Part shown: positions 1 to 42,027 of the stretch, one piece after another | Layout: every line of letters begins with the position of its first letter | Position numbering within the stretch: position 1 is the stretch's first letter | DNA from: Anaerovoracaceae bacterium | GTDB lineage: Bacteria > Bacillota > Clostridia > Peptostreptococcales > Anaerovoracaceae | Direction: 5' to 3' | DNA: 64,000 bases | NCBI GenBank assembly: GCA_045540775.1 | Contig: JAZQHU010000052.1 | Span: 10,531-74,530 of the forward strand | Program-made: the position numbers and the translations under genes | Notes under the pieces: model-generated | Database searches by the model: none | Told to the model about the DNA's origin: nothing | What the model saw: only the letters and a program-made list of their open reading frames with translations

Positions 1-679
1 CTCCGGTATCCTTGCGGTGCCAGCCCGGCTCCAGCACGATCTCTCTTATTACAAAATGAGAAAGTCTTGCAATGTCCGAGATGTTGAAGTTACGCCCGCT
101 CGTCTCGGTGATGCGGTCAACAGACGCCATCTCTATCTTCTCGCTGCGGCATATGTATGCTGCCGCATCATAGAGCTGATTGCCCGTCTCGGTGAATACA
201 CCTGTGACTCCGCGTCTTCTGCGCGGGCTGAAAAGATCATAGATGAGCCTGAGAGACCTGTCTCTCGTCCTCTCCTGATCCATCTGTGCAGCGTATATGT
301 AGCCCTGCTCCTTGACATTCGTCAGCTCGTACTTCTCGACTACCATCTCCTCGTACGAGGTGAACTCATTCAGCTTAATACCGACGGTTTCGGCGAATCT
401 CGTCTGCATCGGCCCGGTGACTCCGCCGCTGACTGCTTCCACAGTAGCAGTGTCCATGGCCACCAGACCCATTATCCACTCACCGAGAGCCTCGGACTTA
501 TAGTGGAATCCCGGAATATAGCTGCCCGGAGCAAACTCGCCCAGCAGCATCCTGCGGCCCTTTTTGCCGTCCCTTACAGGCAGCAGAAAAACCAGCACCT
601 GCCCGTCTGTGACTCTGTAAGCAGTGCCGCCGTCTTCCGTATAATGTACGTAGCCGCCTTTAAGATGGATCTGTTCCAA
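1..679 (-). CDS. ABC transporter, third gene of an NHLM-type bacteriocin export operon (N-terminal ~226 codons only; continues past window start)
   Basis: Absent from the ORF track (TTG start, no stop inside the window). Manual minus-strand translation from TTG at 679 is open to base 1: LEQIHLKGGYVHYTEDGGTAYRVTDGQVLVFLLPVRDGKKGRRMLLGEFAPGSYIPG... An AGGAGAG sits 7 nt upstream, and the start is 12 nt after the stop of the C39-ABC gene. The beta-barrel, cNMP-binding-like N-terminus is typical of the second ABC protein in HlyD/C39-ABC/ABC operons. The + ORF 17..814 is its antisense shadow. Confidence 0.6.
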   Translation of the reverse strand, partial: MEQIHLKGGYVHYTEDGGTAYRVTDGQVLVFLLPVRDGKKGRRMLLGEFAPGSYIPGFHYKSEALGEWIMGLVAMDTATVEAVSGGVTGPMQTRFAETVGIKLNEFTSYEEMVVEKYELTNVKEQGYIYAAQMDQERTRDRSLRLIYDLFSPRRRRGVTGVFTETGNQLYDAAAYICRSEKIEMASVDRITETSGRNFNISDIARLSHFVIREIVLEPGWHRKDTG

Positions 680-691
680 GTGATGTCTCTC

Positions 692-2836
692 CTACATATT
701 GCTGATAAGTCTCTGATAGTGTCCCGGTACCTTGGCGAGCTCTTCATGGCTGCCCCTCTGCACTATCTTTCCCTGTTCCATGACGATGATCTCGTCACAG
801 TCTCTGATGGCTGACAGTCTGTGCGCTACTATGATGCACGTGCAGCCTCTTCTCTTTATATTGTCGATTATCTGTTTCTCAACTATCGGGTCAAGAGCAC
901 TGGTCGCCTCATCCATGATGAGGATGCTCGGATTGCATACGAGCGCTCTTGCTATCTCAAGCCTCTGTCTCTGTCCTCCCGACAGGTTGCTGCCGCCCTC
1001 AGACAGCTCGTAGCTGTAGGCTCCCGGCTTGGTCGTGATGAAGTCGTGGATGCACGCATCCTTGGCAGCCTTGACCATGTCTTCCTTGCTTATGTACTTG
1101 TCCCACAGGGTCATGTTGTCCTTGATGGAACCCGAGAACAGTGTGATGGTCTGGCTGACCGTCGAAATGCTCGATGAGAGTATCTCCGGCGGGATCTGTG
1201 ATACAGGCACACCGTCCATCCTTATCTCTCCTGTCCACGGAACGTATAGCCCCGAGCACAGCTTGGACACTGTTGACTTTCCGCTTCCGGATGCTCCGAC
1301 GAAAGCTATCGACTGACCAGGCTCCAGATGGAAGCTGAAGTCCGAAACGATAGGATCCTTGAGGATGTCGTATCCGAATGACAGGTTGTCGAGCTCGACT
1401 TCACCCTGAAGCTTTTCCGAGAGGTCGGTGTACTCTGTTACCGAGTATCTGCTGTCCTGCTCGTACTTCATTATGTCGTTGACCCTGGCCATGTCTGCCC
1501 TGGTCGTCTCTATCTTCTGGATGAATGCCGCAACTGCAGTTACCGGCTGTGTGAACGAAGCCTGCAGCGATGTGTAGGCAATAAGTGAACCGGCTGTCAT
1601 GCTGCCTCTGATGACGAGAACACCGCCCGCTATCAGTACTAAGACATTGATGAGATTGTTCGTGACCTCCGGTATGGCGTTCAGCATCTCCTGGCGCATA
1701 CCCATGTTCTGCTCGGTGTTGATGCTCTTGGCATAGTTGCCCTGAAGCCTGCTGATGAACTCATTCTCGGTACCTGATGCCTTGAGTGTGCTCGTTATGC
1801 GAAGTCCGCTGAACAGCACGCCGATGAGCTTACTCTGATCCTGCTGAGCCTTCATCGACATGTTCGACAGGTACTCAGAGCTCTTCTTCATGGCGATCAT
1901 GTTGGCCGCTGTTATAACTACGATCAGCATCGTCAGAAGCGGGCTGTAGATCAGCAGTATGATGAGATACAGCGGAGCTACTATCGCATTCAGCATCACA
2001 TCCGCGAGGTCAGTTGTCAGGAACGTCGTGACCTTCTCATTGTTCTGTATCCTGTTGGAGAGGTCACCTGTGTACCTCTGGTCGAAGAATGACACCGGCA
2101 GCCTCAGCATGTGCCAGAGCAGCCTGTATCCCGACAGCATCGCCATCTTGTTCTGCAGCCTGTGCATCAGTCTGCCCCTGTAGTAGGTGAGCGCCGCCTT
2201 GAACACCATGGTCCCCAGCATCGCGAACAGAAGCGCAGTTACCCAGTCGTCATTGCCTCCGAGGAGGATGTCGTCAATGAACACCTTGGAGAATACCGGC
2301 ACAACGATACCCGGTATCATGAGGAAGAACCCGAGACACACAAGAGCGTTGACCGCGCCGAACTGGCCTCTCAGTCTCTGCAGCACGAAAGTGCGCATCG
2401 TCTCGCTTTCATGGCTCTTCTCAAATGCGTCTGTAGGGGCAAAAGTCAGGACTACACCCGTAAAGCAGTCGTCGATGTCCTCAACTGTCAGCTTGCGCCT
2501 TCCCTGCGCCGGATCGTTGATGTAGCATGCGTCGCCCTTGCGGCCTTCCCATACTACGAAGTGATTGAAATTCCAGTGTATGATACAAGGAACGGGCAGC
2601 TCAAACAGGCCGTCAAGGTCCTTTCTGTATCCGTGGACCTCGAGGCCGAATTTCTTGCCTGCCCGCATTATATTCTTCATATTGCAGCCGTCTCTCGAAA
2701 CACCCGTCTCTATACGGAGCTTCTCAAGCGGCAGACTTTTGCCAAAATACCCCAGCACCATCGCAAGTGAGGCCGCTCCGCATTCGGTGGCCTCCATCTG
2801 GTATACTGTTGGGGTTTTGACGTAAGATTTGCTCAT
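692..2836 (-). CDS. Bacteriocin-processing ABC transporter with active C39 peptidase domain
   Basis: 714 aa. N-terminal C39 domain with catalytic residues intact (QMEATECGAAS Cys, IHWNFNHFVVW His, INDPA Asp). TM domain follows. Walker A GASGSGKST, signature LSGGQRQR, Walker B ILIMDEATSALD. Confidence 0.9.
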   Translation of the reverse strand: MSKSYVKTPTVYQMEATECGAASLAMVLGYFGKSLPLEKLRIETGVSRDGCNMKNIMRAGKKFGLEVHGYRKDLDGLFELPVPCIIHWNFNHFVVWEGRKGDACYINDPAQGRRKLTVEDIDDCFTGVVLTFAPTDAFEKSHESETMRTFVLQRLRGQFGAVNALVCLGFFLMIPGIVVPVFSKVFIDDILLGGNDDWVTALLFAMLGTMVFKAALTYYRGRLMHRLQNKMAMLSGYRLLWHMLRLPVSFFDQRYTGDLSNRIQNNEKVTTFLTTDLADVMLNAIVAPLYLIILLIYSPLLTMLIVVITAANMIAMKKSSEYLSNMSMKAQQDQSKLIGVLFSGLRITSTLKASGTENEFISRLQGNYAKSINTEQNMGMRQEMLNAIPEVTNNLINVLVLIAGGVLVIRGSMTAGSLIAYTSLQASFTQPVTAVAAFIQKIETTRADMARVNDIMKYEQDSRYSVTEYTDLSEKLQGEVELDNLSFGYDILKDPIVSDFSFHLEPGQSIAFVGASGSGKSTVSKLCSGLYVPWTGEIRMDGVPVSQIPPEILSSSISTVSQTITLFSGSIKDNMTLWDKYISKEDMVKAAKDACIHDFITTKPGAYSYELSEGGSNLSGGQRQRLEIARALVCNPSILIMDEATSALDPIVEKQIIDNIKRRGCTCIIVAHRLSAIRDCDEIIVMEQGKIVQRGSHEELAKVPGHYQRLISNM

Positions 2837-2911: not shown

Positions 2912-4591
2912 CTAATTGGCGCCATTCTGGGCATTCTGCTGCAGCTGCTCCTGTGAGTGGTCAACAGAAAGCTTCTCCTTGATGTACGGGATCAGCATGG
3001 TTATAGGCGCCTTCTCCTCAGTGACTATATCCGCATTGATAACTGTACCTTCTTCAAGAGTAACATCTGCGCCCTTCTTGCTCGACCACTTGTATCCGCT
3101 GGCCGTGCTGCTGTCCTCTGTAAGTCTGCAGTTGACTCTTACTACCGGTCCGCTCTGCTGGAATACCTGAACGAGAGTCGGGTCTCCCAGCTGGTTCTGC
3201 ATGTCTTCAGCCGAGACTACAGTGCTTGATACCTTTACGACCTCACCTTCCATGTGGCCGTATTCCTGCTTGTTGACCGTCGACGGATATACGACGATCT
3301 TCATGCCGGCCTTGATCTTCTTGCCATCGGATACAGGTACATAGCATGTGACACCGGTATCGTCAGCTCCTGTCGAAGTGATCTTGCAGATCGTTGTGCC
3401 CTGACCGACAGCGTTGCCTTCGACAATGTTGAGTCCGCTGACCTTTCCGTTGACTCTTGATGTAAGAGTCATTGCATCTACTGCGCGGCTCTGCTTGTCT
3501 ATCTCCTGATTGAGCTGATCGAGAATGCTGCCCTTGGCTGCTACGAACTGCTCTTCGAGAGCGGACATCTGATCATTTTTGCCAGCCCTGTCTCCGGTCA
3601 CCTTCGCCTCCATCTGCGAAACGGTATCCTGAAGCTGCTTCTGAGCAGCTTTCTCATTGTTATAGACTGACAGAGCTGTGTTGTATTTCGTCTGGGCATT
3701 GCCTACTTCAAGCTCTTTCTTCTTGGCAGCCGCCTCTTTATCATCCATATTCTTCAGAGCAGAATCATATTTCTTCTTATAGCTCCGGAATCCTTCAAGG
3801 ATCTTTTCGAGTTTTTCTTTCTCTGCCTTCTGCTCCGGCACAGTTTCGTCCTGCATATTGATAAGTGTCTGCAGATTAAACTCTATCTTGTCCACATCGG
3901 TGAGATCTATCCCCGTAGGAGCGACATGATTCTGAATATAGTTGGTCAATGTCGTTTCTTCCTTGGCGAATTCTTCCTGTGCCTTCTTAAAACTCTTGCT
4001 CAGTGAAACCAGCTCGTTCTGTCTCTTCTTCATTGTACTCTCGGCAGAGTTCATGGTGCTCTTAGCGGAGCTTGTCGTCCCTCTCTGCCTGGACAGCGCC
4101 CGGTACCTTTCCCTCAGTGCTGCCTGGTCTGCCGAAAGTGCGCTTCCGGACAGCTCAGACTGCGCCTTGATGTCCAGAAGCGGCTTGGTATCTGCAGTAG
4201 CAGGATCCCCATACGAGTAGAATGTGACCACTTCCACGTCATCCCTTCGCGCGATCAGCCTGTCGAGTTCAGTCTGATACATTTCATCATCCAGCTTTGC
4301 TATCTTCTCGCCGGCAGTGACCGTGTCTCCTTCCGCAACGAATACTTCCTGAACTATTCCGTCAGCCTCAGCAACTACGGTGTGCATGCCGTCTTTTCCC
4401 ATGTAAATACCGTTCGCGTTTACATTTACCGGAAGCCTTCCGAATATAGACCATATAAGCGCAACTGCTATGATAAGTCCCCCGCCTATCGCAGCTATCC
4501 AGAATGAAGGCGAAATAATGGTTATCGCCTTATCCAGCTGCTCAGGAGATGATAATTTATCTAATGACGATTTTCTGAAAATATCCGCCAT
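2912..4591 (-). CDS. HlyD-family membrane fusion / secretion protein
   Basis: 559 aa. N-terminal TM anchor (FWIAAIGGGLIIAVALIWSIF), long coiled-coil middle, beta-rich C-terminus. First gene of the operon with the two ABC genes. Confidence 0.85.
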   Translation of the reverse strand: MADIFRKSSLDKLSSPEQLDKAITIISPSFWIAAIGGGLIIAVALIWSIFGRLPVNVNANGIYMGKDGMHTVVAEADGIVQEVFVAEGDTVTAGEKIAKLDDEMYQTELDRLIARRDDVEVVTFYSYGDPATADTKPLLDIKAQSELSGSALSADQAALRERYRALSRQRGTTSSAKSTMNSAESTMKKRQNELVSLSKSFKKAQEEFAKEETTLTNYIQNHVAPTGIDLTDVDKIEFNLQTLINMQDETVPEQKAEKEKLEKILEGFRSYKKKYDSALKNMDDKEAAAKKKELEVGNAQTKYNTALSVYNNEKAAQKQLQDTVSQMEAKVTGDRAGKNDQMSALEEQFVAAKGSILDQLNQEIDKQSRAVDAMTLTSRVNGKVSGLNIVEGNAVGQGTTICKITSTGADDTGVTCYVPVSDGKKIKAGMKIVVYPSTVNKQEYGHMEGEVVKVSSTVVSAEDMQNQLGDPTLVQVFQQSGPVVRVNCRLTEDSSTASGYKWSSKKGADVTLEEGTVINADIVTEEKAPITMLIPYIKEKLSVDHSQEQLQQNAQNGAN

Positions 4592-26341: not shown

Positions 26342-26343
26342 GC

Positions 26344-30538: not shown

Positions 30539-32698
30539 TTACGCTGACTGCCTCTTCATCAGCTCATGGAAGTATCCCTTCAGCTCCATGAGTTCGTCGA
30601 ACGTGCCCTCTTCGGCTATCCCGCCGTCCTTCAGCACGATGATCCTGTCGCACTCCTTCACCGTCGACAGTCTGTGCGCGACCATGATGACCGTGCACTT
30701 TTCCTGATAAACAGCATCCAGCACCTTCTTCTGCGAGATGTTGTCGAGCGCCGAAGTCGCCTCGTCAAGGATCAGGAGCCCCGGCTTTGATGCGAAGGCC
30801 CTCGCCAGGAGCAGCCTCTGCCTCTGACCGCCCGAGAACCCGCCCGTGTTCGAGTCAGAGATCTCGGTATCGTATCCGAGCGGCAGCTTCATTATCGTAT
30901 CGTCAATGTCGGCTTTGACCGCCGCTTCCTTAGCCTCTTCCCTGCTCACAGGATGCGGGCAGAAAGCAATGTTGGAATACACCGTTCCCGGCATCACGCG
31001 GCTGAACTGGAACACGGATCCGATGTGCCGTCTGAACGACCTCAGATTGATCGTCTCAAGAGGCCTGTTGTCGATGAACACGCCGCCAGTTACAGGTCTG
31101 AGCACGCCGAGGATGATCTTGAGAAGAGTGCTCTTGCCGCACCCGCTTTCGCCGACTATCGCCACCTTCTCACCGGCAGCAATGTGCAGCGAGATATCAT
31201 TGAGGCAGCCGAAGCTGCTGTTTTCATATGCAAAATTCACGTTCTCTATGCGGATGTCTCCGCGGAATTCTCTGAGAACAGTCTGCTCGCGTCCGTTTTC
31301 CGAAGGTGCCTCGAAAATGTATCTGAGCTGCGCCATCATCGGTCTCATCAGGAAGACTTTGCGCTGAGCATCCATGAGGTCCTCCACCGCCGCGGCAATG
31401 ATCGCAAAAGCCGCGTTGAACGCGATGTAGTCTGCTTTGGTTATACCGCTTGGAACGACGAGCGCCAGCAGAATCACCGTCGTGAGCGAACTCAGGAAGC
31501 CCATTATGACAGACTCAAGCTTGAGTATCGCCGGCTGGTTCATGTCACAGGCCAGGACCGACTGGTATCTGGCCGCCCATTTTGCATACACCCTCCTGGT
31601 GGATCCGCTCTCCTTGATCCGCTGGATGCCCTTGAGAGCGCTGTACAGGAAAGACCTGTTGTCGAGCTCAGCTTCCTGGCGGCTGCGCTCGTTTTCAGCG
31701 AAGAATCCGCTCGCAATGTAGATGTATATGCACCTTACAAGGAGCACAGCGAGTGCCGGTATGAGAAGCGTCATCGAGAAGCCCGCCATCTGAGGTATGT
31801 AGACCACTGAGAACAGCGCCGTAAGCGATGCTCCCATGACAAAGCTTATGATCTGATCTGCGAGGAGCCTCGAATTGGTGATCTGCTTTGAGAGCTTGCC
31901 GGTCGAGGTCCGCAGGAAAAACGTCTGCGGCAGAGTCAGTACTTTGCTCATCACTGCAGACTGCATCTCTGAAGCCACCCTCACGCTCATCCGCGAGAGG
32001 AACAGTGACCTGACCGCTGTGATGCCGCTTCGTATAATTCCCGTCAGGAGGAAGAGGAAAAGTCCTCTTGTCAGCAGGCTGAATCCGTCATTGCCCATCG
32101 GGACTATGTCCTGCAGGATATACTTGTTCATCTTAGGTGTGACCAGCCCGAGTGCCGAGATCATGAGTGCTGCAAGTCCTATTGCCACGACGTCCCTCGG
32201 CGAGATGAGCCTCAGAACATATATCGCATAGTTAAGCAGCGTCGGCTGATCCAGCGCTATCGGCCGCTGTATCACGTATGCCCTCTCCTGCAGCCTGACC
32301 TTGTCAGTCACATGGCCCTTGGCACCGGTCGACGGGCACATGTACCTGTAGCCTACCATCGCAGGTGTCAGGACAGCGGCCGTTCCGTCCTCAAGGAACC
32401 CGAGGATGCTGCCGTTACCCCTCTTCCACGAACCGTCTGTTGTGTCAATGGCATCATATATGATCCCAAGCGGGTCAAGAACGAGATCGAGCATCTCTTC
32501 AGTGCTCTCATAGCCGTAGACCTCATCAGCATTCAGACCGAACGATTCCAGAATATGATCCAATGCCAAAAATGCGCCGTTGTCATCTCCGGCGCTTCCC
32601 GGATTGCTCTGGCGGTTCATCATCCGGTAATCGGCGTTTTTCACCATTTCCCGGTCGATCCTATCCCGTTCTCTGATTACTTCTGTGTACAGGCCCAT
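30539..32698 (-). CDS. ABC exporter (TMD-NBD) with non-catalytic N-terminal domain
   Basis: 719 aa. Walker A GESGCGKST, signature FSGGQRQR, Walker B LLILDEATSALD. Its start directly abuts the stop of the upstream ABC gene. Confidence 0.85.
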   Translation of the reverse strand: MGLYTEVIRERDRIDREMVKNADYRMMNRQSNPGSAGDDNGAFLALDHILESFGLNADEVYGYESTEEMLDLVLDPLGIIYDAIDTTDGSWKRGNGSILGFLEDGTAAVLTPAMVGYRYMCPSTGAKGHVTDKVRLQERAYVIQRPIALDQPTLLNYAIYVLRLISPRDVVAIGLAALMISALGLVTPKMNKYILQDIVPMGNDGFSLLTRGLFLFLLTGIIRSGITAVRSLFLSRMSVRVASEMQSAVMSKVLTLPQTFFLRTSTGKLSKQITNSRLLADQIISFVMGASLTALFSVVYIPQMAGFSMTLLIPALAVLLVRCIYIYIASGFFAENERSRQEAELDNRSFLYSALKGIQRIKESGSTRRVYAKWAARYQSVLACDMNQPAILKLESVIMGFLSSLTTVILLALVVPSGITKADYIAFNAAFAIIAAAVEDLMDAQRKVFLMRPMMAQLRYIFEAPSENGREQTVLREFRGDIRIENVNFAYENSSFGCLNDISLHIAAGEKVAIVGESGCGKSTLLKIILGVLRPVTGGVFIDNRPLETINLRSFRRHIGSVFQFSRVMPGTVYSNIAFCPHPVSREEAKEAAVKADIDDTIMKLPLGYDTEISDSNTGGFSGGQRQRLLLARAFASKPGLLILDEATSALDNISQKKVLDAVYQEKCTVIMVAHRLSTVKECDRIIVLKDGGIAEEGTFDELMELKGYFHELMKRQSA

Positions 32699-34882
32699 TT
32701 ATTTCTCCTCAGGCACCTGCAGCAGTTTTCTGTACAGGCCCTCGGTATTGAACAGCTCTTCGTGCGTGCCTCTCTGGACTATCTTTCCTCCGTCCATGAC
32801 GAGGATGCTGTCGCAGGAGGCGACGGTCGACAGTCTGTGGGCAACTATGATGCATGTCGTCCCCTTCTGTCTTATGGATTCAAACACCTCAGCCTCCGTG
32901 ACTGCATCAAGAGCCGAAGTGAATTCGTCCAGAAGCAGGATGGTAGGCTCGGCGGACAGCGCTCTGGCAAGTTCGATCCTCTGGAGCTCGCCGCCCGAGA
33001 AGTTCCGTCCGTTTTCAACCATCGGCGAGTAGTAGCCCTCGCTTTCCTGCATTATCCTGTCGTGTATATGTGCATCGCGGGCAGCCAGGATCATCTCGTA
33101 GTCCTCGACCGTGGAGTCCCACATGGTGAGGTTGTTCCTGATGCTGTCCTCGAATATTACGCATTCCTGATCCACCGCCGTCACAGACGAGTGGAAAACG
33201 ACGTCAGGTATCTCTTCGCGCCTGTATCCGCCGTACAGTATCTCCCCGCTTTCAGGCTGATAAAGCGACAGCAGGCACTTAAGGAGCGTACTTTTGCCGC
33301 ACCCCGAAGATCCGACGACCGCTATAAGCTGCCCCGGCTCTGCTGAGAACGAGACGTCAGTGAGAGCAAGAGGCTCACCTTCCTGATACCTGTAGCAGAG
33401 ATCCTTGACTTCAAGGCTTCCCTTCAGCTTGTCCGGCTCGTAGTCATCAGTCAGCGGGTACTCGGTGATGCTGTCCCTTTCAAGGATGTCCTCGATGCGC
33501 TCTATGTCCGTGCGCGTTCCCTGCAGCGTGTTGGTCATGTTGACACAGTTGGAGAACGCAGAGCGGAAGCTCGAAAGCACCGCCTGCAGCGCCGCCATTA
33601 TACCGAACGTGAACTGGCCGGCTATCATGAAATATGCTCCGGCAAAGAGCAGCACAGCCTGGGATATGAGTATGTGCACGCTGTCGATGGCACTTGCAAG
33701 CGCACTGGTGCCCGCGGTCTTCAGGTGGTTGTCATCATATTCCGCCTGGGTCCTCCTCCATCCGGAAAAGAACATCCTCTCCTGTCCGCCGGTCTTGATC
33801 GTCTCGATCGTGTTGATACCGTTCAGCAGGGCCGTGTTCATGTTGCCCGTGCTGACAGCTCTTCCGAGCGCCTGAAGTCTGATCCTGTCTCTCAGCATCA
33901 TGGAAACTGCCATGTATACGACCTCGACAGCAACGCACAGAAGCGCCACTTTCACGTTGTATGTGAGCATCAGCACAAAATATATGACAGTCATAACGAC
34001 GTCTATCATTCTCGGGACTATCGTCCTGACAAGCGACAGGTCGAGTTTGGAGTTATCCTCCATCCGCTGTATGATCTCGCCCGACCGGTACTGTTCGAAG
34101 AAGCTCATCGGCTGGGTCATTATCTTGCGGAAAATGCCCGAGCCCGACCCGGCAGCTACCGAATACGCAGTGCGGTATATAAGAAGAGTTCTCAGTATGT
34201 TAACGGTGACACTCAGCACCAGTATCACGCACATGGTGATCACGAGGAATCTGTACAGGGACATGCCTGAACCCGCCTTATGCATGATGATGCCCGACAG
34301 CCAGTCTGTTCCCGGCGTCCTTTCGTCAGCCACATCGAGCATGACCCTTGTCGCCCTTACCATAAGAAGGCTCAGCCCCACTCCAAGCATGTTCAGGATG
34401 CCGAGCCACAGAAGCACCCTGCCGTGTCCGTCCATGCGCCTTTTGATGAGGCTGTAAAGTGACGGCCTTTTGCCGCCCTTCGTGAATCCCGCGCCCGGCT
34501 TCATCACGAGCACGGTCCCGGTGAACATTTCAGCAAAATCCTCTTCATTCATCGTATACTCGCCCTTGGCCGGATCAGCGATATACACTTTGCCGCCCCT
34601 GACGTCCTTGACGATGCAGTAAAGAAACTTCTTCCACTTGGCAACGACCGGGAACTTCATCCCGTCGAGGCCTTTCATGTCCGTCTCTACAGTCTCGGTC
34701 TCAAGGCCGTAGCGGGCAGCCATGTCCTTCATCTGCTCAGGTGACGAGCCGCCTCTTGAGGTTATGTTGTGTGCACGCATCTCGGACAGAGGGATATACC
34801 GCCCATAGTAAGAGAGCATTGTGGCTATCGCCGCAATGGAATTCTCGCCCGTATGAGGTTGTATCACTACGGATATCTTCAC
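32699..34882 (-). CDS. ABC exporter with degenerate C39-like domain (catalytic Cys and His lost)
   Basis: The N-terminus aligns to the C39 domain, but TECG is replaced by GENS and HW..NHFVV by KWKKFLYCIV. Walker A GSSGCGKST, FSGGELQR, LLLDEFTSALD. The probable start is GTG 34882 (GGAGGAAAAGGGAAC upstream) rather than ATG 34927. Confidence 0.8.
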   Translation of the reverse strand: MKISVVIQPHTGENSIAAIATMLSYYGRYIPLSEMRAHNITSRGGSSPEQMKDMAARYGLETETVETDMKGLDGMKFPVVAKWKKFLYCIVKDVRGGKVYIADPAKGEYTMNEEDFAEMFTGTVLVMKPGAGFTKGGKRPSLYSLIKRRMDGHGRVLLWLGILNMLGVGLSLLMVRATRVMLDVADERTPGTDWLSGIIMHKAGSGMSLYRFLVITMCVILVLSVTVNILRTLLIYRTAYSVAAGSGSGIFRKIMTQPMSFFEQYRSGEIIQRMEDNSKLDLSLVRTIVPRMIDVVMTVIYFVLMLTYNVKVALLCVAVEVVYMAVSMMLRDRIRLQALGRAVSTGNMNTALLNGINTIETIKTGGQERMFFSGWRRTQAEYDDNHLKTAGTSALASAIDSVHILISQAVLLFAGAYFMIAGQFTFGIMAALQAVLSSFRSAFSNCVNMTNTLQGTRTDIERIEDILERDSITEYPLTDDYEPDKLKGSLEVKDLCYRYQEGEPLALTDVSFSAEPGQLIAVVGSSGCGKSTLLKCLLSLYQPESGEILYGGYRREEIPDVVFHSSVTAVDQECVIFEDSIRNNLTMWDSTVEDYEMILAARDAHIHDRIMQESEGYYSPMVENGRNFSGGELQRIELARALSAEPTILLLDEFTSALDAVTEAEVFESIRQKGTTCIIVAHRLSTVASCDSILVMDGGKIVQRGTHEELFNTEGLYRKLLQVPEEK

Positions 34883-34991
34883 GTTCCCTTTTCCTCCCTG
34901 CGTCTTCGCGGAATGTGCCGCACACACACCCGCAAAACCGGATTTTGCTCAATCGTAGAAATTATAGCACAGATTCTACGCTCGCGCCCTT

Positions 34992-35090: not shown

Positions 35091-35118
35091 TTTACATGAC
35101 CGCTCAATATGTTATTAT
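35091..35118 (+). promoter_or_regulatory. SigmaA-type promoter for ncRNA copy 1
   Basis: -35 TTTACA (35091..35096), 16-nt spacer, extended -10 TGtTATTAT (35110..35118). The predicted TSS falls at the AAAGGAAGG that opens the RNA. Copy 2 has the homologous TGtTATCAT at 35314..35322. Confidence 0.55.
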
Positions 35119-35125
35119 CTTGATC

Positions 35126-35247: not shown

Positions 35248-35328
35248 ATTGTTTTTTTGCCTTTTCCTTTTTTCTCATTCGGGTAATTTTTTCTGTTTTA
35301 TGATCGCGCACTGTGTTATCATTCGCTT

Positions 35329-35452
35329 GAGGGGAAGGTGCACGTAAGTGTGTTTCAGGAAGGCCGGACAGACTGCCTTTGATAAAGCATCTGAAACTGC
35401 TGCAGAGTAAGCCGGTCTCGTTGGCAAACCTCAAAAAAACCTCCCCTTTTTT
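35329..35452 (+). ncRNA. Candidate structured small RNA, RT-associated, copy 2
   Basis: Paralog of copy 1. Only about five substitutions over the first ~85 nt, mostly loop or pair-preserving; one gives an A-C mismatch in copy 1. The closing helix covaries (GGGGA(A)GGT / ACCTCCCC), followed by a T-run 35 nt before the RT ATG. Confidence 0.6.
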
Positions 35453-35487
35453 CATTATTAAAATCAGACGATCGCAGAGGACGAGAG

Positions 35488-36747
35488 ATGACTATTTTTG
35501 AAAAGGCGATGCAGCCTGAGACCAGGCAGGCATTTGTAGATTATAAGCTCAGGAAGAGAAGATACAGCAAAGAGGAAAACGAAGCCATGGCACAGTACGT
35601 CCTGAGCGACGACTGCGTCCGGGACATTCAGAGACTCCAGGCGGGTGACTTCTTCCTCGACTACCCGGACTACAGACTGATCCCTAAGAATTTTGACGGC
35701 CGCAAGCGCGCCATTTACCGCTTCCGCGGGACGCAGGGAGCCCTGCTCAAGCTCCTCGTCTTTGCAATGAAGGGTGTTGAGCAGCACTATTCCGACAGGC
35801 TGTTTTCATTCAGATCCGACAGGACTGCGACTGATCTTCTCGAGGACATATGCTCCTGCGAGGGTCTGGAAAACATGTACATATTCAAGACGGACGTCAC
35901 CAACTACGTCGGATCCATCGTTCCTGAGATCATCATTCCGATGCTCGCAGATATATATCTCGAGGACGATCCGGGCTTCTATAATTTCCTTGAATGGCTT
36001 CTCATGAGAAAGAAGGTCATAGACCGCGACGGCAACGTGATCGATCACTGCCCGGGCGGAATGGGCGGCATACCGGTCGCCAACTTCTTCATGAACCTCT
36101 ACCTTCACGAGATGGACGAGTATTTTGCACCGCGCGCAGCGTTCTATTCGAGATACTCCGACGACATCCTCATCTGTGCACACACGTATGAGGAGATCAA
36201 GGAGTTCGAGGCAAAATTCTTTGAGATCCTCGGAAGGCTGCAGCTGAGAGTAAACATGGAAAAGACGGAGATACAGGAGCCGGGAAGCGCTTTCGACATG
36301 CTCGGCATGGAGATCTGCGGCAGCAGCGTAACCATTTCCCGTCACTCCATGAATAAGATAAAGCGCAAGCTGCGCAAGTTCACCGACAGAGCGCTCATAA
36401 GAGCCAACAAAGGCTACGTCAGCCGCGAGCAGGCCGCAAAGGATATCATCAGCAGATTCAACAGGTTCTTCTTCGGCGCGCCTCAGAGCAACAAGCTCCT
36501 CTCGTGGGCAAAATGGGCTTACCCGGTGATCACTGATACGGCCTGTCTCGAGGAGATCGACCACTATTTCCAGAACAGTATCAGATACGTTCTCTACGGC
36601 TCGATGAAACTCAGAAACCGCACCATACCGTACGAAAAGCTCCACGAGCTGGGATACAGGTCTCTGGTGTACTACTATCACCACCAGGACAAGATCTACG
36701 AGCTGCTGGGTATCAAGCCTGATCGCAAACCGGGCAGTGAAGCCTGA
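35488..36747 (+). CDS. Reverse transcriptase, stand-alone (not intron, retron or DGR type by motif inspection)
   Basis: 419 aa. RT motifs: RKRAIYRFRG (1), FSFRSDRTATD (2a), IFKTDVTNYVGSI (3), GGMGGIPVANFFMNLYLHEMD (4), RYSDDILI (5, YxDD), LRVNMEKTEI (6), FDMLGMEI (7), plus a ~120-aa thumb-like C-terminus. Confidence 0.85.
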   Translation: MTIFEKAMQPETRQAFVDYKLRKRRYSKEENEAMAQYVLSDDCVRDIQRLQAGDFFLDYPDYRLIPKNFDGRKRAIYRFRGTQGALLKLLVFAMKGVEQHYSDRLFSFRSDRTATDLLEDICSCEGLENMYIFKTDVTNYVGSIVPEIIIPMLADIYLEDDPGFYNFLEWLLMRKKVIDRDGNVIDHCPGGMGGIPVANFFMNLYLHEMDEYFAPRAAFYSRYSDDILICAHTYEEIKEFEAKFFEILGRLQLRVNMEKTEIQEPGSAFDMLGMEICGSSVTISRHSMNKIKRKLRKFTDRALIRANKGYVSREQAAKDIISRFNRFFFGAPQSNKLLSWAKWAYPVITDTACLEEIDHYFQNSIRYVLYGSMKLRNRTIPYEKLHELGYRSLVYYYHHQDKIYELLGIKPDRKPGSEA

Positions 36748-36783
36748 TCGCAAACCGGACAGTGAAGCCTGATTGCAGGCTTC
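36715..36783. repeat. 2.7 tandem copies of a 25-bp repeat spanning the RT stop codon; the last copy forms a terminator-like hairpin
   Basis: AAGCCTGATCGCAAACCGGGCAGTG / AAGCCTGATCGCAAACCGGACAGTG / AAGCCTGATTGCAGGCTTC. Hairpin GAAGCCTG-ATTG-CAGGCTTC at 36764..36783, then TTT. Confidence 0.85.
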
Positions 36784-36879
36784 TTTGGAGGCACGATCGA
36801 ATCAATTGAACAAAATAAAAGAACCGGCATATCGTCCTTCGCTGAATGAAGGCGTGATGCCGGTTCTTATTATGTCACT

Positions 36880-38676
36880 CTATTCTCCCTCATACCTGTG
36901 ATAGATGAAGTGCGATGTAGTATCCAGATGCAGGAGCCCGTCGTTCTCAGCTGCCTCTGTTTCAAGTGCCTCGAGCACTGCATCTCTCATCACAATGTTG
37001 TTGTACAGAAGCCTGTCTGTTTCGTTGTATGCGATGAGCGGATTGTGCGTGCCGTCATCGTTCGGCCTGTCTGATATAGCAGAGAACTCGCCGACTGATA
37101 TCTTGAGTTTCTTGTCTTTCCAGCCTTCAGTCCACTGTCCGTCCCTGTAGATGACCGTCCCGTCCTTCACAAGGGCATCGACTATGCAATTTTTCCTGCC
37201 CTCTTTATTCACATTGTCCGCCGGGTCATCGTAGAAATAGCAGTCGATGCCGGTCATGCAGGTCAGAAGACTCCTGCCGCTGTGCTGCATGGAATAATGC
37301 ATCAGGTCCATGAACTCTCCGTAAGTGATCTCATAGACATAGATCGTATCGTCAAACGGCAGCATCGAGAAGATGTCGCTGTGTGTGACCACCCTCCTAT
37401 CCTTGCCCTCAGGCACATCAAGATCCGCACGCACTCCTGATGTATTGCATATGGAGACGTCCGCTCCGGTATATTTTCTTACTGCATCATTGATCCAGTT
37501 GTTTGCAATAGTGATCCTCTTCCCGCTGTCATCCAGATAACGTCTGGTGATGGACTGGGTAACATATCCTATCTCATCCTCAAGATATCCGCGGATAAGC
37601 TCCAGATACTCATCACATATCTTTATTACATCAGCGGAAAGCTCCTCTGCGTTGGCCTGAGTATTGAGCAGAATCTTCTCATCATCCAGAGTGTAGATTA
37701 TATCCGCCCTGTCGTCAGCACCGGCTTTTATCTGCGCACCGCCCTTGCCGTCATGCTCAAATACTAGCTCCGAATAAGTGTAAGCGGATGCTTTGCCTGA
37801 AGGAGACAGGTATCTGAGCCCCCAGTCTGTCGTTTCCAGATGCCTCTTGTGGACATGCCCGCCGAGCACAAGGTCGACAGCAGTTCCCTCTCCGAGGCTT
37901 TCGGCTGTATGCCCCGGATCGCCATGCACGAGAAGGATCGTCGCATCGGCCTTGCCGCTTTCTTCGAGATCCGCAGCGAGCTCATTCACTTTGTCCGTAT
38001 CCTCAACGATGCTGTAACCCAGATCGGTGAAAGACGACTGCAGCATGCTTGCCGAAAAGTCCTCATCGTAGCCTATTACGGCCACTCTGGCCTCGAGCAT
38101 TTTGCCGTCCTCTGAATACGCCTTCTTGTTCAGGATGACATAGTCCTGCGTGAACTCTGTCTTCTTGCCGTCGCGAAACAGGTTGGAGCACACGACAGGG
38201 ATCTTGTTCTCATGCTTCTCCCCGCCGAGCACATAGTCGCGCATCGTGGCATCTGAGTTGATAACGGTCTCGAGCCCCCAGTCAAATTCATGATTGCCGA
38301 CTCCGACCGCATCGTACTTCATGCAGTCATAAACAGCAGACAGCGGCTCGCCTTTCTCAAGGAGAGAAACCGTGCTTCCCTGATATATATCGCCCGTGTC
38401 CACGAGGATCGTCCGGTCCGCATCAGAACCTTCCTCAGTCCTGCGCGCGTCTTCGACCTTGTCTGCGATGTAAGCCATTCTGTACTCCGGCGGCTCAGTG
38501 TCTGAAACGATACTGCCGTGAACGTCGGACGTCTCAAAAACTGGCAGCCTGAATTCGCCGGTTCCCGCCTCAGGATATACGATCCCGATGCGCGGCCCGG
38601 TATACAGAAGCACTTCAAGCACGATGAGCGTCGCCAGCATCATTGCTATGAGGTCACGTTTGTCTGCTATTCGCAT
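36880..38676 (-). CDS. Membrane-anchored metallophosphoesterase / 5'-nucleotidase family protein
   Basis: 598 aa. N-terminal TM segment; motifs DTGDIYQG, GNHEFD and GGHVH. Confidence 0.8.
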   Translation of the reverse strand: MRIADKRDLIAMMLATLIVLEVLLYTGPRIGIVYPEAGTGEFRLPVFETSDVHGSIVSDTEPPEYRMAYIADKVEDARRTEEGSDADRTILVDTGDIYQGSTVSLLEKGEPLSAVYDCMKYDAVGVGNHEFDWGLETVINSDATMRDYVLGGEKHENKIPVVCSNLFRDGKKTEFTQDYVILNKKAYSEDGKMLEARVAVIGYDEDFSASMLQSSFTDLGYSIVEDTDKVNELAADLEESGKADATILLVHGDPGHTAESLGEGTAVDLVLGGHVHKRHLETTDWGLRYLSPSGKASAYTYSELVFEHDGKGGAQIKAGADDRADIIYTLDDEKILLNTQANAEELSADVIKICDEYLELIRGYLEDEIGYVTQSITRRYLDDSGKRITIANNWINDAVRKYTGADVSICNTSGVRADLDVPEGKDRRVVTHSDIFSMLPFDDTIYVYEITYGEFMDLMHYSMQHSGRSLLTCMTGIDCYFYDDPADNVNKEGRKNCIVDALVKDGTVIYRDGQWTEGWKDKKLKISVGEFSAISDRPNDDGTHNPLIAYNETDRLLYNNIVMRDAVLEALETEAAENDGLLHLDTTSHFIYHRYEGE

Positions 38677-40945: not shown

Positions 40946-40975
40946 TGAAAAACGAGGCCAGGATTTCCGGCCCCG
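40946..40975 (-). terminator. Terminator after the bacteriocin precursor pair
   Basis: Minus strand CGGGGCCGG-AAAT-CCTGGCCTCG followed by TTTTTC. Confidence 0.65.
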
Positions 40976-41044
40976 TGTTCAGTCTCTTCTGTATCTGTAT
41001 TCAGATTTTATGATTGGCTTTCAGGCTCTGCAGATCTGCAGTTC

Positions 41045-41482
41045 CTAAACGATGCTTGTTGGGTCGCCCGATCCTGCACAGCTCACTTTATTACCGCCTG
41101 CGCCAATGCCAATGCATATGCCCATACCGGTGTCATAGCCGGTCGAAGTCTTCTCCACGGCTCCCCCTACACCGATTCCGTAACCGAAGAGCACGCACTT
41201 GGTCCATATCAGTCCGCCGCCTTTTCCGCCTGCAACCTGTTCAAGCTCATCTTCAGATAATTCTCCCTGAGCATCAGCGGCAAAAGCGCCTGTAAACTCT
41301 TTGAACTCATCGTATGTCGCGGAGAGTCCGTGCTTTTGCCCGAGAGGCAGCAGAAGGTTTTCAAATACAGACTTTTCGTCCTGCTCTCCTGTATATTTCT
41401 CAGCCGCTTCTCTTAACTCCTCCTGAAAATCGGAATCATTCACCAGAAGATCTCTGAATTTTATAAGATCTGCTTTTACCAT
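41045..41482 (-). CDS. Nif11-like-leader (N11P) ribosomal peptide precursor A
   Basis: 145 aa. 86-aa Nif11-type leader ending ELSEDELEQVAGG, then a 59-aa glycine-rich core KGGGLIWTKCVLFGYGIGVGG...GICIGIGAGG...SCAGSGDPTSIV with Cys at core positions 10, 37 and 49. Confidence 0.85.
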   Translation of the reverse strand: MVKADLIKFRDLLVNDSDFQEELREAAEKYTGEQDEKSVFENLLLPLGQKHGLSATYDEFKEFTGAFAADAQGELSEDELEQVAGGKGGGLIWTKCVLFGYGIGVGGAVEKTSTGYDTGMGICIGIGAGGNKVSCAGSGDPTSIV

Positions 41483-41568
41483 GATGTTAATATATCCCCT
41501 TTCTTTTCATACAAGATAATTGTCTCTGTCCATGATGCAACACAGCATCAGTTTCCCGTGTTCAGACC

Positions 41569-42027
41569 CTATAAGTCCACAAGATCGTCGGCTTCTCCGG
41601 ATCCGAAGCACTTGTAGCTTCCGGCTCCTGCACCGATGCCTATGCATATGCCCACGCCAAAGTGAGAACCGCTGCCATGCGGAGTATCTGCTCCTCCTAC
41701 ACCGATCCCGACACCAAAAATAGCGCATTTGCCAATACCTGCTCCGCCGCCTTTTCCGCCAGCGACCTGTGTCAGCTCGTCCTCTGAAAGCTCTCCGGCG
41801 AGTTCTCCGTTTTCGGCACCGCTTGCAACAGCCTCTATGTAATCTCTGAATTCATCATAGGTTGCCGAGAGCCCATGCTCTTTTCCGAGCGGAAGCACGA
41901 CCTTCTCAAATACAGCCTCCTCATCCGGCTCTCCATCATATTTTTCAGCTGCTGCTTTGAATTTTTCCTGGAATTCAGGGTCAGTGGTTATAAGTTCATG
42001 AAACTTCTTGAGATCTTCCTTAGCCAT
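41569..42027 (-). CDS. Nif11-like-leader (N11P) ribosomal peptide precursor B
   Basis: 152 aa. 91-aa leader ending ELSEDELTQVAGG, then a 61-aa core KGGGAGIGKCAIFGVGIGVGG...GICIGIGAGAGSYKCFGSGEADDLVDL with Cys at the same core positions 10, 37 and 49. Confidence 0.85.
   Translation of the reverse strand: MAKEDLKKFHELITTDPEFQEKFKAAAEKYDGEPDEEAVFEKVVLPLGKEHGLSATYDEFRDYIEAVASGAENGELAGELSEDELTQVAGGKGGGAGIGKCAIFGVGIGVGGADTPHGSGSHFGVGICIGIGAGAGSYKCFGSGEADDLVDL

What the first reader, a model, noticed from the sequence alone, without database searches (positions are those of the whole stretch)
41045..42027. Two tandem Nif11-leader precursors with long glycine-rich, 3-Cys cores and no adjacent modification enzyme
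Both ORFs start with a Nif11-type leader (about 86 and 91 aa) that ends in the canonical ELSEDEL-x-QVAGG double-glycine site. The cores are 59 and 61 aa, roughly one-third glycine, with GxxxG-like runs (GIGVGG, GICIGIGAG). Cysteines fall at identical core positions 10, 37 and 49, and each core has an acidic tail.

The cores resemble unmodified class IIb/IIc double-glycine bacteriocins more than the lanthipeptide, TOMM or radical-SAM substrates usually attached to N11P leaders. No LanM, cyclodehydratase or rSAM gene is nearby; the neighbours are mtnK and sdaAB. A paralogous pair suggests a two-peptide bacteriocin. The odd number of Cys hints at an intermolecular disulfide or an unrecognised modification.
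Basis: partly seen in the sequence, partly recalled or inferred. Interest (0 to 1): 0.7.

Follow-up and report, generated by a model that had tools for sequence, protein, structure and literature searches.

The report
Orphan Nif11-leader peptide precursor pair

Summary
Two minus-strand ORFs (41569-42027, 152 aa; 41045-41482, 145 aa) have Nif11-type leaders ending in ELSEDELxQVAGG. Their cores are 61 and 59 aa, about 30% Gly, with Cys at core positions 10, 37 and 49. Both genes are under purifying selection.

- A canonical Nif11/NHLP export triad lies at 1-4591: HlyD-like TIGR03794, a peptidase-ABC TIGR03796 with intact Cys/His, and the start of a TIGR03797 ABC.
- A second ABC pair lies 6 kb from the precursors (30539-34927). 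Its C39 domain has lost the catalytic Cys and His.

The peptides belong to a family found in rumen Anaerovoracaceae, with several dispersed loci per genome. In at least four other source assemblies, same-type precursors lie inside a conserved cassette: a B12 radical-SAM C-methyltransferase (TIGR03975), and in three of them a radical-SAM/SPASM enzyme, plus an ACP-like protein, an AMP-ligase and a GNAT-like protein. In one lineage this cassette is linked to the ortholog of the window's degenerate ABC pair; a sister strain carries a deletion scar in its place.

Best reading: orphan precursors of a radical-SAM-tailored RiPP family, cleaved and exported by the triad. Whether this genome keeps the maturases is unknown. 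Class IIb membership fails. This is a new variant of a known kind, of moderate interest.

The parts
41569..42027 (-). Precursor A: 91-aa Nif11-type leader ending QVAGG, then a 61-aa Gly-rich core with 3 Cys (KGGGAGIGKC...GICIGIGAGAGSYKCFGSGEADDLVDL)
   Evidence: ORF. Pfam Nif11 31.7 bits against 23.8. TIGR03798 31.8 against 32.3. Family alignment A1. dN/dS below 1. AF2 gives a helical leader at pLDDT 70-80 and an unstructured core.
41045..41482 (-). Precursor B: 86-aa leader, 59-aa core (KGGGLIWTKC...GICIGIGAGGNKVSCAGSGDPTSIV). Paralog of A at 58% identity.
   Evidence: 72% identical to P0004 in L001, with leader dN/dS 0.19 and core 0.32.
40952..40976 (-). Intrinsic-terminator-like hairpin (10-bp stem, 7 GC pairs, T-run) about 70 nt after the stop of precursor B. 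It closes the two-gene unit.
692..2836 (-). Peptidase-containing ABC exporter (PCAT) with an intact C39 catalytic Cys (QMEATECGAASL), His (HWNFNHF) and Asp (INDP). Predicted to cleave the leader after GG and export the core.
   Evidence: TIGR03796 987.7 bits against a cut-off of 853.3. Peptidase_C39 130 bits. Motifs read.
2912..4591 (-). HlyD-like secretion protein of the NHLP/N11P export system
   Evidence: TIGR03794 244.3 bits against a cut-off of 156.2.
2..691 (-). Start of a third gene of the export operon, cut by the window edge. Residues 171-230 match the N-terminus of the TIGR03797 ABC subunit.
   Evidence: Open frame directly after the PCAT stop. TIGR03797 is the only hit, E 1.6e-6, model positions 2-61. 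Weak, because the gene is truncated.
32699..34927 (-). PCAT-like ABC protein (PCAT') about 6 kb downstream of the precursors on the same strand. Its C39 domain lacks the catalytic Cys (Asn29) and His (Leu), so it is a C39-like domain. Link to the precursors is inferred, not shown.
   Evidence: Pfam C39 + ABC_membrane + ABC_tran. Best NCBIfam hit TIGR03796, 599 bits, below the 853 cut-off. Residue-by-residue alignment to LahT150 6MPZ. The same substitutions occur in 71%-identical orthologs L023 and L030.
30539..32698 (-). ABC partner without a peptidase domain (ABC2'), adjacent to PCAT' with no intergenic gap
   Evidence: Best NCBIfam hit TIGR03797, 474.6 bits, below the 709 cut-off. 66% identical ortholog in L023, 3.5 kb from the maturase cassette.

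Best explanation
The two genes encode paralogous precursors of an uncharacterised subfamily of Nif11-leader (N11P) ribosomal peptides. The subfamily has glycine-rich cores with three conserved cysteines and is found mainly in rumen Anaerovoracaceae.

**Proposed mechanism**
1. Each precursor is translated with a folded, helical leader of about 90 aa. *Partly shown:* HMM hit and AF2 model.
2. Radical-SAM and acyl-transfer maturases bind the leader and tailor the core. In relatives these are encoded beside same-type precursors, and they serve dispersed precursor genes in trans. *Inferred by homology.* Likely steps are C-methylation by a TIGR03975-type B12 enzyme, a Cys-dependent cross-link by the SPASM enzyme, and possibly acylation through the ACP, AMP-ligase and GNAT set. 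The chemistry is unknown. No maturase is visible in this window.
3. The canonical NHLP/N11P export triad at the left edge of the window removes the leader after QVAGG and exports the core. *Inferred from family membership and intact catalytic residues.*
4. The hydrophobic Gly-X-Gly-X-Gly segments suggest a membrane-active secreted peptide. *Inferred.*

The nearby ABC pair with a catalytically dead C39 domain belongs to the same gene neighbourhood as the maturase cassette in a related lineage. It may act as an accessory exporter or as a self-protection pump. *Speculative.*
For: **The genes are real N11P precursors.** Leader HMM hits and the GG motif. Purifying selection on the whole leader and on the core. 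Three nearly invariant Cys. The C2-C3 spacing of 12 recurs in many cores of a wider family of at least 200 clusters, and 52 of 101 cores have exactly 3 Cys.

**Same-type precursors sit inside a maturase cassette elsewhere.**
- L006: a precursor lies 24 bp downstream of a B12 rSAM scoring 463.9 bits on TIGR03975 (cut-off 281.85). A rSAM/SPASM enzyme is divergent from it, followed by ACP-like, AMP-binding and GNAT-like genes.
- L026: four tandem precursors lie next to the same cassette.
- L028: one precursor lies between the two rSAM genes.

**Precursors are dispersed.** Two Anaerovoracaceae MAGs each have four loci. In the MAG known to carry the cassette, only one of its four loci is next to it.

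**The window's ABC pair is tied to the cassette in a relative.** The block 5'-nucleotidase, RT, PCAT', ABC2' is syntenic with L023, where the cassette lies 3.5 kb beyond ABC2'.

**Export triad.** Above-threshold members with intact Cys, His and Asp lie in the window. Haft et al. 2010 (PMC2887384) linked this triad to NHLP/N11P precursors by phylogenetic profiling, and noted large paralogous families.
Against: - No rSAM, LanM, YcaO, ACP, AMP-ligase or GNAT homolog of the cassette lies anywhere in the 64-kb window.
- At the syntenic position beyond ABC2', the window has a rhodanese gene and a mobile element instead of the cassette.
- L030, whose PCAT' is 95% identical to that of L023, carries only a 71-aa scar: the ACP N-terminus fused to the GNAT C-terminus. 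Cassette loss therefore happens, and this genome may lack the maturases.
- The rest of the genome could not be examined. The assembly is not in the gene-position index.
- In L001 the closest B-type homolog sits beside two CPBP (Rce1-like) proteins and a His_kinase (PF06580)/response-regulator pair. That context is typical of unmodified class II bacteriocins.
- No expression, processing or activity data exist.
- The export triad is 36-40 kb from the precursors, so their pairing is an inference.
Confidence: 0.5

Rival explanations
1. Unmodified (class II-like) double-glycine bacteriocins. The precursors are only cleaved after GG by the PCAT and exported. Two of the three Cys form a disulfide, and the Gly-zipper segments insert into target membranes. 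This genome has lost, or never had, the maturases.
For: - No maturase in 64 kb.
- Cassette deletion is documented in a related strain that keeps the ABC pair.
- The L001 homolog lies next to CPBP immunity-like proteins and a His_kinase (PF06580)/response-regulator two-component system.
- Sub-threshold resemblance to PF10439 and TIGR03949.
- Haft 2010 notes that N11P occur in species without known maturases.
Against: - Class II HMMs are far below threshold.
- The 90-aa folded leader is conserved along its whole length (leader dN/dS 0.11-0.19). That exceeds what C39 recognition of the last 15 or so residues should require.
- Same-core-type relatives are co-operonic with rSAM maturases.
- No immunity-like gene lies beside the pair in the window.
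- An odd, invariant Cys count fits thioether chemistry better than disulfides.
Confidence: 0.33
2. One reading: an obligate two-peptide (class IIb) bacteriocin, in which A and B act together, possibly joined by an intermolecular disulfide.
For: - Two tandem paralogs ending at one terminator.
- GxxxG-like motifs.
- Identical Cys positions.
Against: - The A/B pairing is not conserved. The B-type homolog occurs alone in L001/L004. Other loci hold 1, 2 or 4 precursors of mixed long-core and short-core types.
- TIGR03949 scores 14.5 bits against 21.5 for A and gives no hit for B.
- No adjacent immunity gene.
Confidence: 0.1
3. Relic or silent genes. The precursors persist after loss of their maturases, and are either not expressed or yield no functional product.
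For: - The maturase cassette is absent at the syntenic site.
- A deletion scar exists in L030.
- No convincing promoter was predicted upstream.
Against: - Both ORFs are intact, each with a Shine-Dalgarno-like stretch upstream and a shared terminator.
- dN/dS is well below 1 in both leader and core, including B against its nearest homolog.
- An intact cleaving exporter is kept in the same window.
Confidence: 0.07

Closest known systems
Nif11-leader RiPP precursors (N11P, TIGR03798/PF07862) with the NHLP/N11P export triad TIGR03794/03796/03797 (Haft, Basu & Mitchell 2010, PMC2887384)
   Same: - Long Nif11-like leader ending in a double-glycine site.
- Paralogous, dispersed precursor genes.
- The three-gene HlyD / ABC-peptidase / ABC export system in the same genome region.
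   Different: - The cores are Gly-rich with three conserved Cys.
- They are linked neither to LanM nor to TOMM cyclodehydratases, the partners described in that paper.
- Precursor B and TIGR03798 for A are below the curated cut-off.
Prochlorosins (Nif11-leader lanthipeptides of Prochlorococcus; many dispersed precursors served by one LanM). Cited from Hubrich 2022 (PMC8784127) and own knowledge.
   Same: Logic: one maturase locus, many scattered precursor genes with a conserved leader and variable cores.
   Different: - No LanM here.
- No conserved Ser/Thr-Cys pairing in the cores.
- The associated enzymes in relatives are radical-SAM enzymes.
Proteusins such as polytheonamides (B12 radical-SAM C-methylation of long-leader precursors). 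Cited from PMC8784127 and own knowledge.
   Same: Relatives carry a TIGR03975 'RiPP maturation radical SAM C-methyltransferase' next to the precursor. The leader is long and structured.
   Different: - The leader is Nif11-type, not nitrile-hydratase-like.
- No epimerase or other proteusin enzymes were seen.
- The window itself has no such enzyme.
Selidamides (GNAT-acylated ribosomal lipopeptides from NHLP/Nif11 clusters; Hubrich et al. 2022, PMC8784127)
   Same: - The relatives' cassette has a GNAT-like protein (Acetyltransf_1, 36 bits).
- The Anaerovoracaceae subfamily has a nearly invariant Lys at core position 1. In selidamides, acylation occurs on Lys or Orn near the core N-terminus.
   Different: - No lanthionine synthetase.
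- A dedicated ACP-like protein and AMP-ligase are present.
- Lys+1 is not conserved in the wider family.
- Acylation is untested, and the window has no GNAT.
Class IIb/IIc double-glycine bacteriocins (PF10439; TIGR03949 lactobin A/cerein 7B)
   Same: - GG processing site.
- Gly-rich hydrophobic core with GxxxG-type motifs.
- Export by a C39 ABC transporter.
   Different: - HMM scores are below threshold.
- The leader is 4-5 times longer and folded.
- The two-peptide pairing is not conserved.
- Relatives are linked to maturases.
Sactipeptides and ranthipeptides, such as thuricin CD (two peptides with three Cys thioethers each; PMC3132745, PMC12093266)
   Same: Three conserved Cys. A radical-SAM/SPASM enzyme lies in the relatives' cassette, and the StsB sactipeptide maturase model aligns over nearly its full length (93-99 bits).
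   Different: - All rSAM/SPASM family hits are far below cut-off.
- The Cys spacing (10, 37, 49) is unlike the N-terminal CxxxCxxxC of sactibiotics.
- No such enzyme is in the window.

Membership tests
N11P (Nif11-leader RiPP precursor, TIGR03798 / PF07862) | N-terminal Nif11-like domain detected by the family HMM | tested here: met
   A: PF07862 31.7 bits against GA 23.8; TIGR03798 31.8 against 32.3, marginally below. B: only 23.7 bits on TIGR03798, but full-length homology to A (58%). AF2 gives 4-5 helices at pLDDT 70-80.
N11P (Nif11-leader RiPP precursor, TIGR03798 / PF07862) | Double-glycine cleavage motif at the leader-core junction | tested here: met
   ELSEDELTQVAGG and ELSEDELEQVAGG. 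D83, E84, Q87 and A89 are invariant; G90 and G91 are at least 90% conserved in A1.
N11P (Nif11-leader RiPP precursor, TIGR03798 / PF07862) | Co-occurrence with the TIGR03794/03796/03797 export system | tested here: met
   TIGR03794 244.3 against 156.2. TIGR03796 987.7 against 853.3. N-terminal fragment of a TIGR03797-type gene, E 1.6e-6. All within the window at 1-4591.
N11P (Nif11-leader RiPP precursor, TIGR03798 / PF07862) | Leader actually removed and core post-translationally modified | not testable with these tools
   Needs mass spectrometry or in-vitro cleavage.
Class IIb two-peptide bacteriocin (TIGR03949 lactobin A/cerein 7B; PF10439 Bacteriocin_IIc) | Family HMM score above the curated cut-off | tested here: not met
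   PF10439: 15.5 (A) and 13.0 (B) against 27.1. TIGR03949: 14.5 (A) against 21.5, none for B.
Class IIb two-peptide bacteriocin (TIGR03949 lactobin A/cerein 7B; PF10439 Bacteriocin_IIc) | Short (about 15-30 aa) double-glycine leader | tested here: not met
   Leaders are 91 and 86 aa with a folded Nif11 domain.
Class IIb two-peptide bacteriocin (TIGR03949 lactobin A/cerein 7B; PF10439 Bacteriocin_IIc) | Two complementary peptides conserved as a pair, with an adjacent immunity gene | tested here: not met
   The B-type homolog occurs alone in L001/L004. Loci hold 1, 2 or 4 precursors of mixed types. No CPBP or small-TM gene lies beside the window pair.
Class IIb two-peptide bacteriocin (TIGR03949 lactobin A/cerein 7B; PF10439 Bacteriocin_IIc) | No post-translational modification beyond leader removal or a disulfide | tested here: inconclusive
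   No maturase in the window. Same-type relatives are co-operonic with rSAM maturases.
Radical-SAM-tailored RiPP (TIGR03975 C-methyltransferase / SPASM maturase substrate) | Precursor encoded next to the maturase | tested here: not met
   Not met in the window. Met for homologs in L006, L026/L027 and L028. So the window genes are at best trans substrates.
Radical-SAM-tailored RiPP (TIGR03975 C-methyltransferase / SPASM maturase substrate) | Maturase genes present in the same genome | not testable with these tools
   Only 64 kb of the genome is available. The assembly is absent from the gene-position index.
Lanthipeptide (LanM/LanBC substrate) | Lanthionine synthetase nearby and conserved Ser/Thr partners for the Cys | tested here: not met
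   No LANC_like or DUF4135 hit in the window's larger ORFs. No Ser/Thr column is conserved in A1 except the GSG tail, which varies.
PCAT (peptidase-containing ABC transporter), for window 32699-34927 | Catalytic Cys and His in the C39 domain | tested here: not met
   Aligned to LahT150 (6MPZ): Cys27 is Asn29 and His101 is Leu; Asp is retained. The same loss occurs in orthologs L023 and L030. It is therefore a C39-like domain. The 692-2836 protein does meet this feature.

The most novel reading that the evidence does not exclude
The Gly-rich tri-Cys Nif11 peptides are a new RiPP class. Scattered precursor genes are served in trans by one cassette. That cassette combines B12 radical-SAM C-methylation, SPASM radical-SAM cross-linking of the three Cys, and ACP/AMP-ligase/GNAT-dependent acylation of the conserved Lys at core position 1, giving a ribosomal lipopeptide. 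An ABC pair with a protease-dead C39-like domain binds the leader without cutting it, acting as a chaperone-exporter or immunity pump. A separate canonical PCAT does the cleavage.
Probability: 0.2. Interest if true: 0.75.

Novelty: new variant of a known kind. Interest (0 to 1): 0.5.

Why it matters
- **A candidate new RiPP family.** If the family is tailored as its relatives' gene clusters suggest, it would add a chemically new group of ribosomal peptides (methylated, cross-linked, possibly lipidated) from rumen anaerobes. Rumen anaerobes remain little explored as a source of RiPPs.
- **A lesson for genome mining.** 'Orphan' precursors with no adjacent enzyme should not be read as unmodified bacteriocins. 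Here the decisive evidence lay in other genomes and 6-40 kb away.
- **An open question about transporters.** A degenerate C39-like ABC pair is kept next to a RiPP cassette. What such protease-dead domains do outside type I secretion of large toxins is unclear.
- **Natural controls.** Strain-to-strain loss of the cassette, with a scar in L030, offers a natural comparison between modified and unmodified products.

Tried and rejected
1. **Finding the source assembly, to look for maturases elsewhere in the genome.** Exact look-ups of precursor A and of sdaAB returned nothing. The cluster listing gave no accession.
2. **Metagenome scan for more family loci.** Only five contigs of 1-2 kb came back, with no usable context.
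3. **Fetching the far side of the L023 contig through the 5'-nucleotidase.** The exact protein was not among the representatives. The look-up instead gave L030/L031, which proved useful because of the deletion scar.
4. **Context for a distant family member.** P0294 lies on a 529-bp contig, so that look-up was wasted.
5. **Context for a 54%-identical rSAM homolog.** P0047 belongs to a third genome and its contig ends at the rSAM gene.
6. **AlphaFold model of the core.** pLDDT is below 40, so no structural inference was drawn.
7. **Selenocysteine read-through in the split glycine-reductase-like ORFs at 12984-14252.** Rejected: the stop codon is TAA, followed by an RBS and an ATG.
8. **TMcin-type transmembrane RiPPs (PMC13252029).** Rejected: TMcins use a different leader, and an S2P-type protease does the cleavage.
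9. **Lanthipeptide and TOMM readings.** Rejected: the window has no LanM, LanC or YcaO, and the cores have no conserved Ser/Thr.
10. **Structured RNA in the 152-nt repeat upstream of the RT.** The folding z-score is -0.62, not significant.
11. **Literature search for this family.** No paper describing it was found.
Full report
**1. Observation**

Each has a purine-rich Shine-Dalgarno-like stretch a few bases upstream of its ATG (read from the sequence). A strong terminator-like hairpin follows B at 40976-40952.

The leaders are 91 and 86 aa and end in ELSEDELTQVAGG and ELSEDELEQVAGG. The cores are 61 and 59 aa, 33% and 29% glycine, with Cys at core positions 10, 37 and 49 in both.

- A passes the Pfam Nif11 gathering score (31.7 against 23.8).
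- A falls 0.5 bit short of the TIGR03798 cut-off, and B gives only a partial hit.
- B aligns with A along its whole length (58% identity).
- The neighbours mtnK and sdaAB/sdaAA are confirmed.

**2. These are real genes in a real family**

A word-indexed search of 5.8 billion proteins found only 20 relatives. An exhaustive profile search of 1.84 billion cluster representatives found 675 at E<=1e-3, 202 at E<=1e-10 and 20 at E<=1e-30.

In the close family, the GG motif, the Lys that follows it and the three Cys are invariant or nearly so. I parsed 101 cores from the wider family. The modal Cys count is three (52 of 101). A spacing of 12 residues between the second and third Cys recurs in many of these cores, as it does in the window (37 to 49).

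Pairwise Nei-Gojobori estimates give dN/dS of 0.11-0.19 for the leader, in the two comparisons where synonymous sites are not saturated, and 0.15-0.48 for the core. This includes B against its nearest homolog.

AlphaFold2 on the family alignment gives a helical leader of four to five helices at pLDDT 70-80. The core has no confident structure (pLDDT below 40).

**3. Where the family lives**

A scan of one genome per GTDB species found the close family in two rumen Anaerovoracaceae MAGs, RFS23 and ruminal_MAG_303. Each has four separate loci. More distant relatives occur in Lachnospiraceae, Oscillospiraceae, Blautia and Thermoclostridium.

Most loci are single genes or pairs embedded among housekeeping genes. 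Two core types occur:
- a long type, like the window's (K-GGG...C...GxGxGxGG...C..IGxG...C.GSGE);
- a short type (K-NS-GxGxC..GxGDLFG...YR..C..VG...C.G.G).

**4.

*(a) A canonical export triad at the left edge.* This is the NHLP/N11P export system defined by Haft et al. 2010 (PMC2887384).
- A HlyD-like protein at 2912-4591 (TIGR03794, 244 against 156).
- A peptidase-ABC protein at 692-2836 (TIGR03796, 988 against 853). Its C39 residues are intact: QMEATECGAASL, HWNFNHF, INDP.
- An ORF that starts right after it and runs off the window. Residues 171-230 of this ORF match the first 60 positions of TIGR03797 (E 1.6e-6, the only hit).

*(b) A second ABC pair 6 kb downstream of the precursors, on the same strand.*
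- PCAT' at 32699-34927 has Peptidase_C39, ABC_membrane and ABC_tran domains. ABC2' at 30539-32698 follows it. Their best matches are TIGR03796 and TIGR03797, both below cut-off.
- I aligned the C39 domain residue by residue to LahT150 (6MPZ), its best solved relative at E 3e-18. The catalytic Cys27 is Asn and His101 is Leu. Asp and the oxyanion Gln are kept.
- Orthologs that are 71% identical (L023, L030) carry the same GEN[AS]IAAIATML motif.
- The loss is therefore a conserved trait, a C39-like domain, and not a sequencing error.

**5. The decisive evidence comes from other genomes**

*L006 (ruminal_MAG_303).* A long-type precursor lies 24 bp downstream of a 669-aa B12-binding radical-SAM protein. 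That protein is a bona fide TIGR03975 'RiPP maturation radical SAM C-methyltransferase' (463.9 bits against 281.85). A 468-aa radical-SAM/SPASM protein is transcribed divergently. All curated family hits for it are below cut-off; StsB sactipeptide maturase aligns over nearly its full length at 93 bits. An ACP-like protein, an AMP-binding ligase and a GNAT-like protein follow.

*Other contigs, found with the B12 enzyme as a probe.*
- L026/L027 has the same cassette with four tandem precursors, two long and two short. It also has a YcaO with further Nif11-type peptides.
- L028 has one precursor between the two radical-SAM genes and another beside the GNAT-like gene.
- L023/L024/L025 has the cassette without the SPASM gene.

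*Link to the window.* In L023 the cassette lies 3.5 kb beyond an ABC2', PCAT', RT, 5'-nucleotidase block. That block is syntenic with window 30539-38676 at 56-71% amino-acid identity, with the RT inverted in the window. This ties the window's degenerate ABC pair to the RiPP cluster in at least one lineage.

*Cassette loss.* L030/L031 has a PCAT' 95% identical to L023's. Where L023 has the cassette, L030 has only a 71-aa ORF made of the ACP N-terminus fused to the GNAT C-terminus. This is a deletion scar.

*A cultured relative.* In Butyrivibrio sp. VCD2006 a 42%-identical rSAM sits in a LanM cluster with a Nif11-type precursor and an active PCAT plus ABC2 pair.

**6. What the window lacks**

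No homolog of either radical-SAM enzyme, the ACP-like protein or the GNAT-like protein was found by tblastn. The only AMP-binding match is a 25-26%-identical FadD-like gene at 21606-23321. Pfam scans of most of the larger ORFs show no LanM, LanC or YcaO. No genuine ORF has a CxxxCxxC motif apart from serine dehydratase.

Beyond ABC2', where L023 has the cassette, the window has a rhodanese gene and then an integrase and relaxase element.

I could not inspect the rest of the genome.

**7. Interpretation**

The genes are N11P-type precursors. Three points are robust:
- the leader type;
- the double-glycine site;
- the presence, in the same 64 kb, of an intact cleaving export triad that phylogenetic profiling has tied to such precursors.

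Four points favour tailoring by radical-SAM and possibly acyl-transfer enzymes:
- same-type cores are co-operonic with such enzymes in several other assemblies;
- precursor genes in this family are habitually scattered, and in ruminal_MAG_303 only one of four loci is beside the cassette;
- the entire 90-aa leader, not just the C39-recognition helix, is under purifying selection;
- the invariant, odd Cys count suits thioether-type cross-links.

Four points count against it for this particular genome:
- the cassette is absent from the window and from the syntenic site;
- cassette loss is documented in a relative;
- the closest B-type homolog (L001) sits beside CPBP-type immunity-like proteins and a His_kinase (PF06580)/response-regulator two-component system, as unmodified class II bacteriocins do;
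- there are no expression or chemistry data.

I therefore give:
- about 0.5 to 'orphan precursors of a radical-SAM-tailored family, cleaved and exported by the triad';
- about 0.33 to 'processed but otherwise unmodified';
- below 0.1 to 'relic'.

**8. Comparison with known systems**

- *N11P.* Membership is met on leader, motif and transporter co-occurrence.
- *Class IIb/IIc.* Membership fails on HMM score, leader length and conserved pairing.
- *Proteusins, selidamides (PMC8784127), sactipeptides and ranthipeptides.* The relatives' cassette resembles parts of each, but matches none as a whole. I found no paper describing this family.
- *Selidamide-like acylation.* The Lys at core position 1 is conserved only in the Anaerovoracaceae subfamily. 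This tempers the idea of selidamide-like acylation.

**9. Verdict**

The finding is a new variant of a known kind. Interest is moderate (0.5). It would rise if the maturases are found in this genome, or if the products of the cassette are characterised.

Noticed in passing
window 35488-36747 (+); L023 435-1661 and 19906-21150; L030 11787-13031: A 419-aa reverse transcriptase matches PADLOC RT_UG26 over its full length (329 bits). It lies directly beside the degenerate PCAT'/ABC2' pair in three genomes. L023 has two copies flanking the whole cluster, and the gene is inverted in the window. The conserved adjacency of an 'unknown group' RT with an ABC pair has no explanation so far.
   Followed up: partly
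window 34992-35451 (between PCAT' and the RT): Two direct copies of a 152-nt element (35096-35247 and 35300-35451, 82% identical) and four tandem 26-nt repeats (34992-35119). Part of the element is similar to sequence next to an RT copy in L023 (293-420). One copy gave a folding z-score of only -0.62. This may be an RT-associated non-coding RNA or a duplication.
   Followed up: partly
window 32699-34927 (-), residues about 23-125: The C39 domain has the catalytic Cys replaced by Asn and the His by Leu. Orthologs that are 71% identical show the same changes. This is a C39-like domain of the kind known from HlyB-type transporters, here found next to a RiPP cassette in Gram-positive anaerobes.
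   Followed up: yes
L030 17825-18040 (also L031 9483-9698): A 71-aa ORF is a fusion of the ACP-like N-terminus and the GNAT-like C-terminus of the L023 cassette. It is a clean deletion scar, showing recent loss of the maturase genes between near-identical strains.
   Followed up: yes
window 30176-30511 (-); L010 6023-6355: A single-domain rhodanese-like gene starts 27 nt after the ABC2' stop. It is 79% identical to a gene 2 kb from a family precursor in ruminal_MAG_303. That is higher than the 55-60% identity of the precursors themselves. The L023 and L030 orthologous loci lack it.
   Followed up: no
window about 23700-29600: A probable integrated mobile element. It has a tyrosine recombinase (28402-29553, +), a MobQ/TraA-like relaxase (23700-24809, -), a P-loop protein (25087-26064) and a pemK RNA motif (26854-26930, Rfam 42.3 bits). 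It lies between tRNA-Arg (21406-21482) and the rhodanese/ABC2' genes, at the position where L023 has the maturase cassette.
   Followed up: partly
window about 51200-59800 (GC 34-40% against about 52% elsewhere): A low-GC island. It holds a 973-aa SIR2_2 protein (ThsA/Dsr-like hits, 53090-56011) and an AbiLi-like AAA_21 ATPase (56743-58068) with a 170-aa partner. IS110-family (51238-52491) and IS3-family (58652-59791) transposases flank it. This is probably an anti-phage defence island.
   Followed up: partly
window 62514-62656 (-): Moco/tungsten riboswitch (RF01055, 55.1 bits) upstream of a MobA-like NTP-transferase/NTPase gene (61295-62518).
   Followed up: no
L008 4040-7785 (RFS23); L023 4947-7274; L030 18098-20393: Two conserved proteins of about 360-400 aa have N-terminal signal or anchor sequences and no Pfam or NCBIfam hit. 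They follow the GNAT-like gene in L023. In L008 they follow a separate radical-SAM/SPASM gene, 2-5 kb from a family precursor. They are candidate accessory or immunity proteins of the system.
   Followed up: no
L026 13971-16914: Beside the four family precursors, the same cluster carries a YcaO-domain protein and two further Nif11-type precursors with different hydrophobic Gly-rich cores. One locus therefore appears to serve several precursor types.
   Followed up: no
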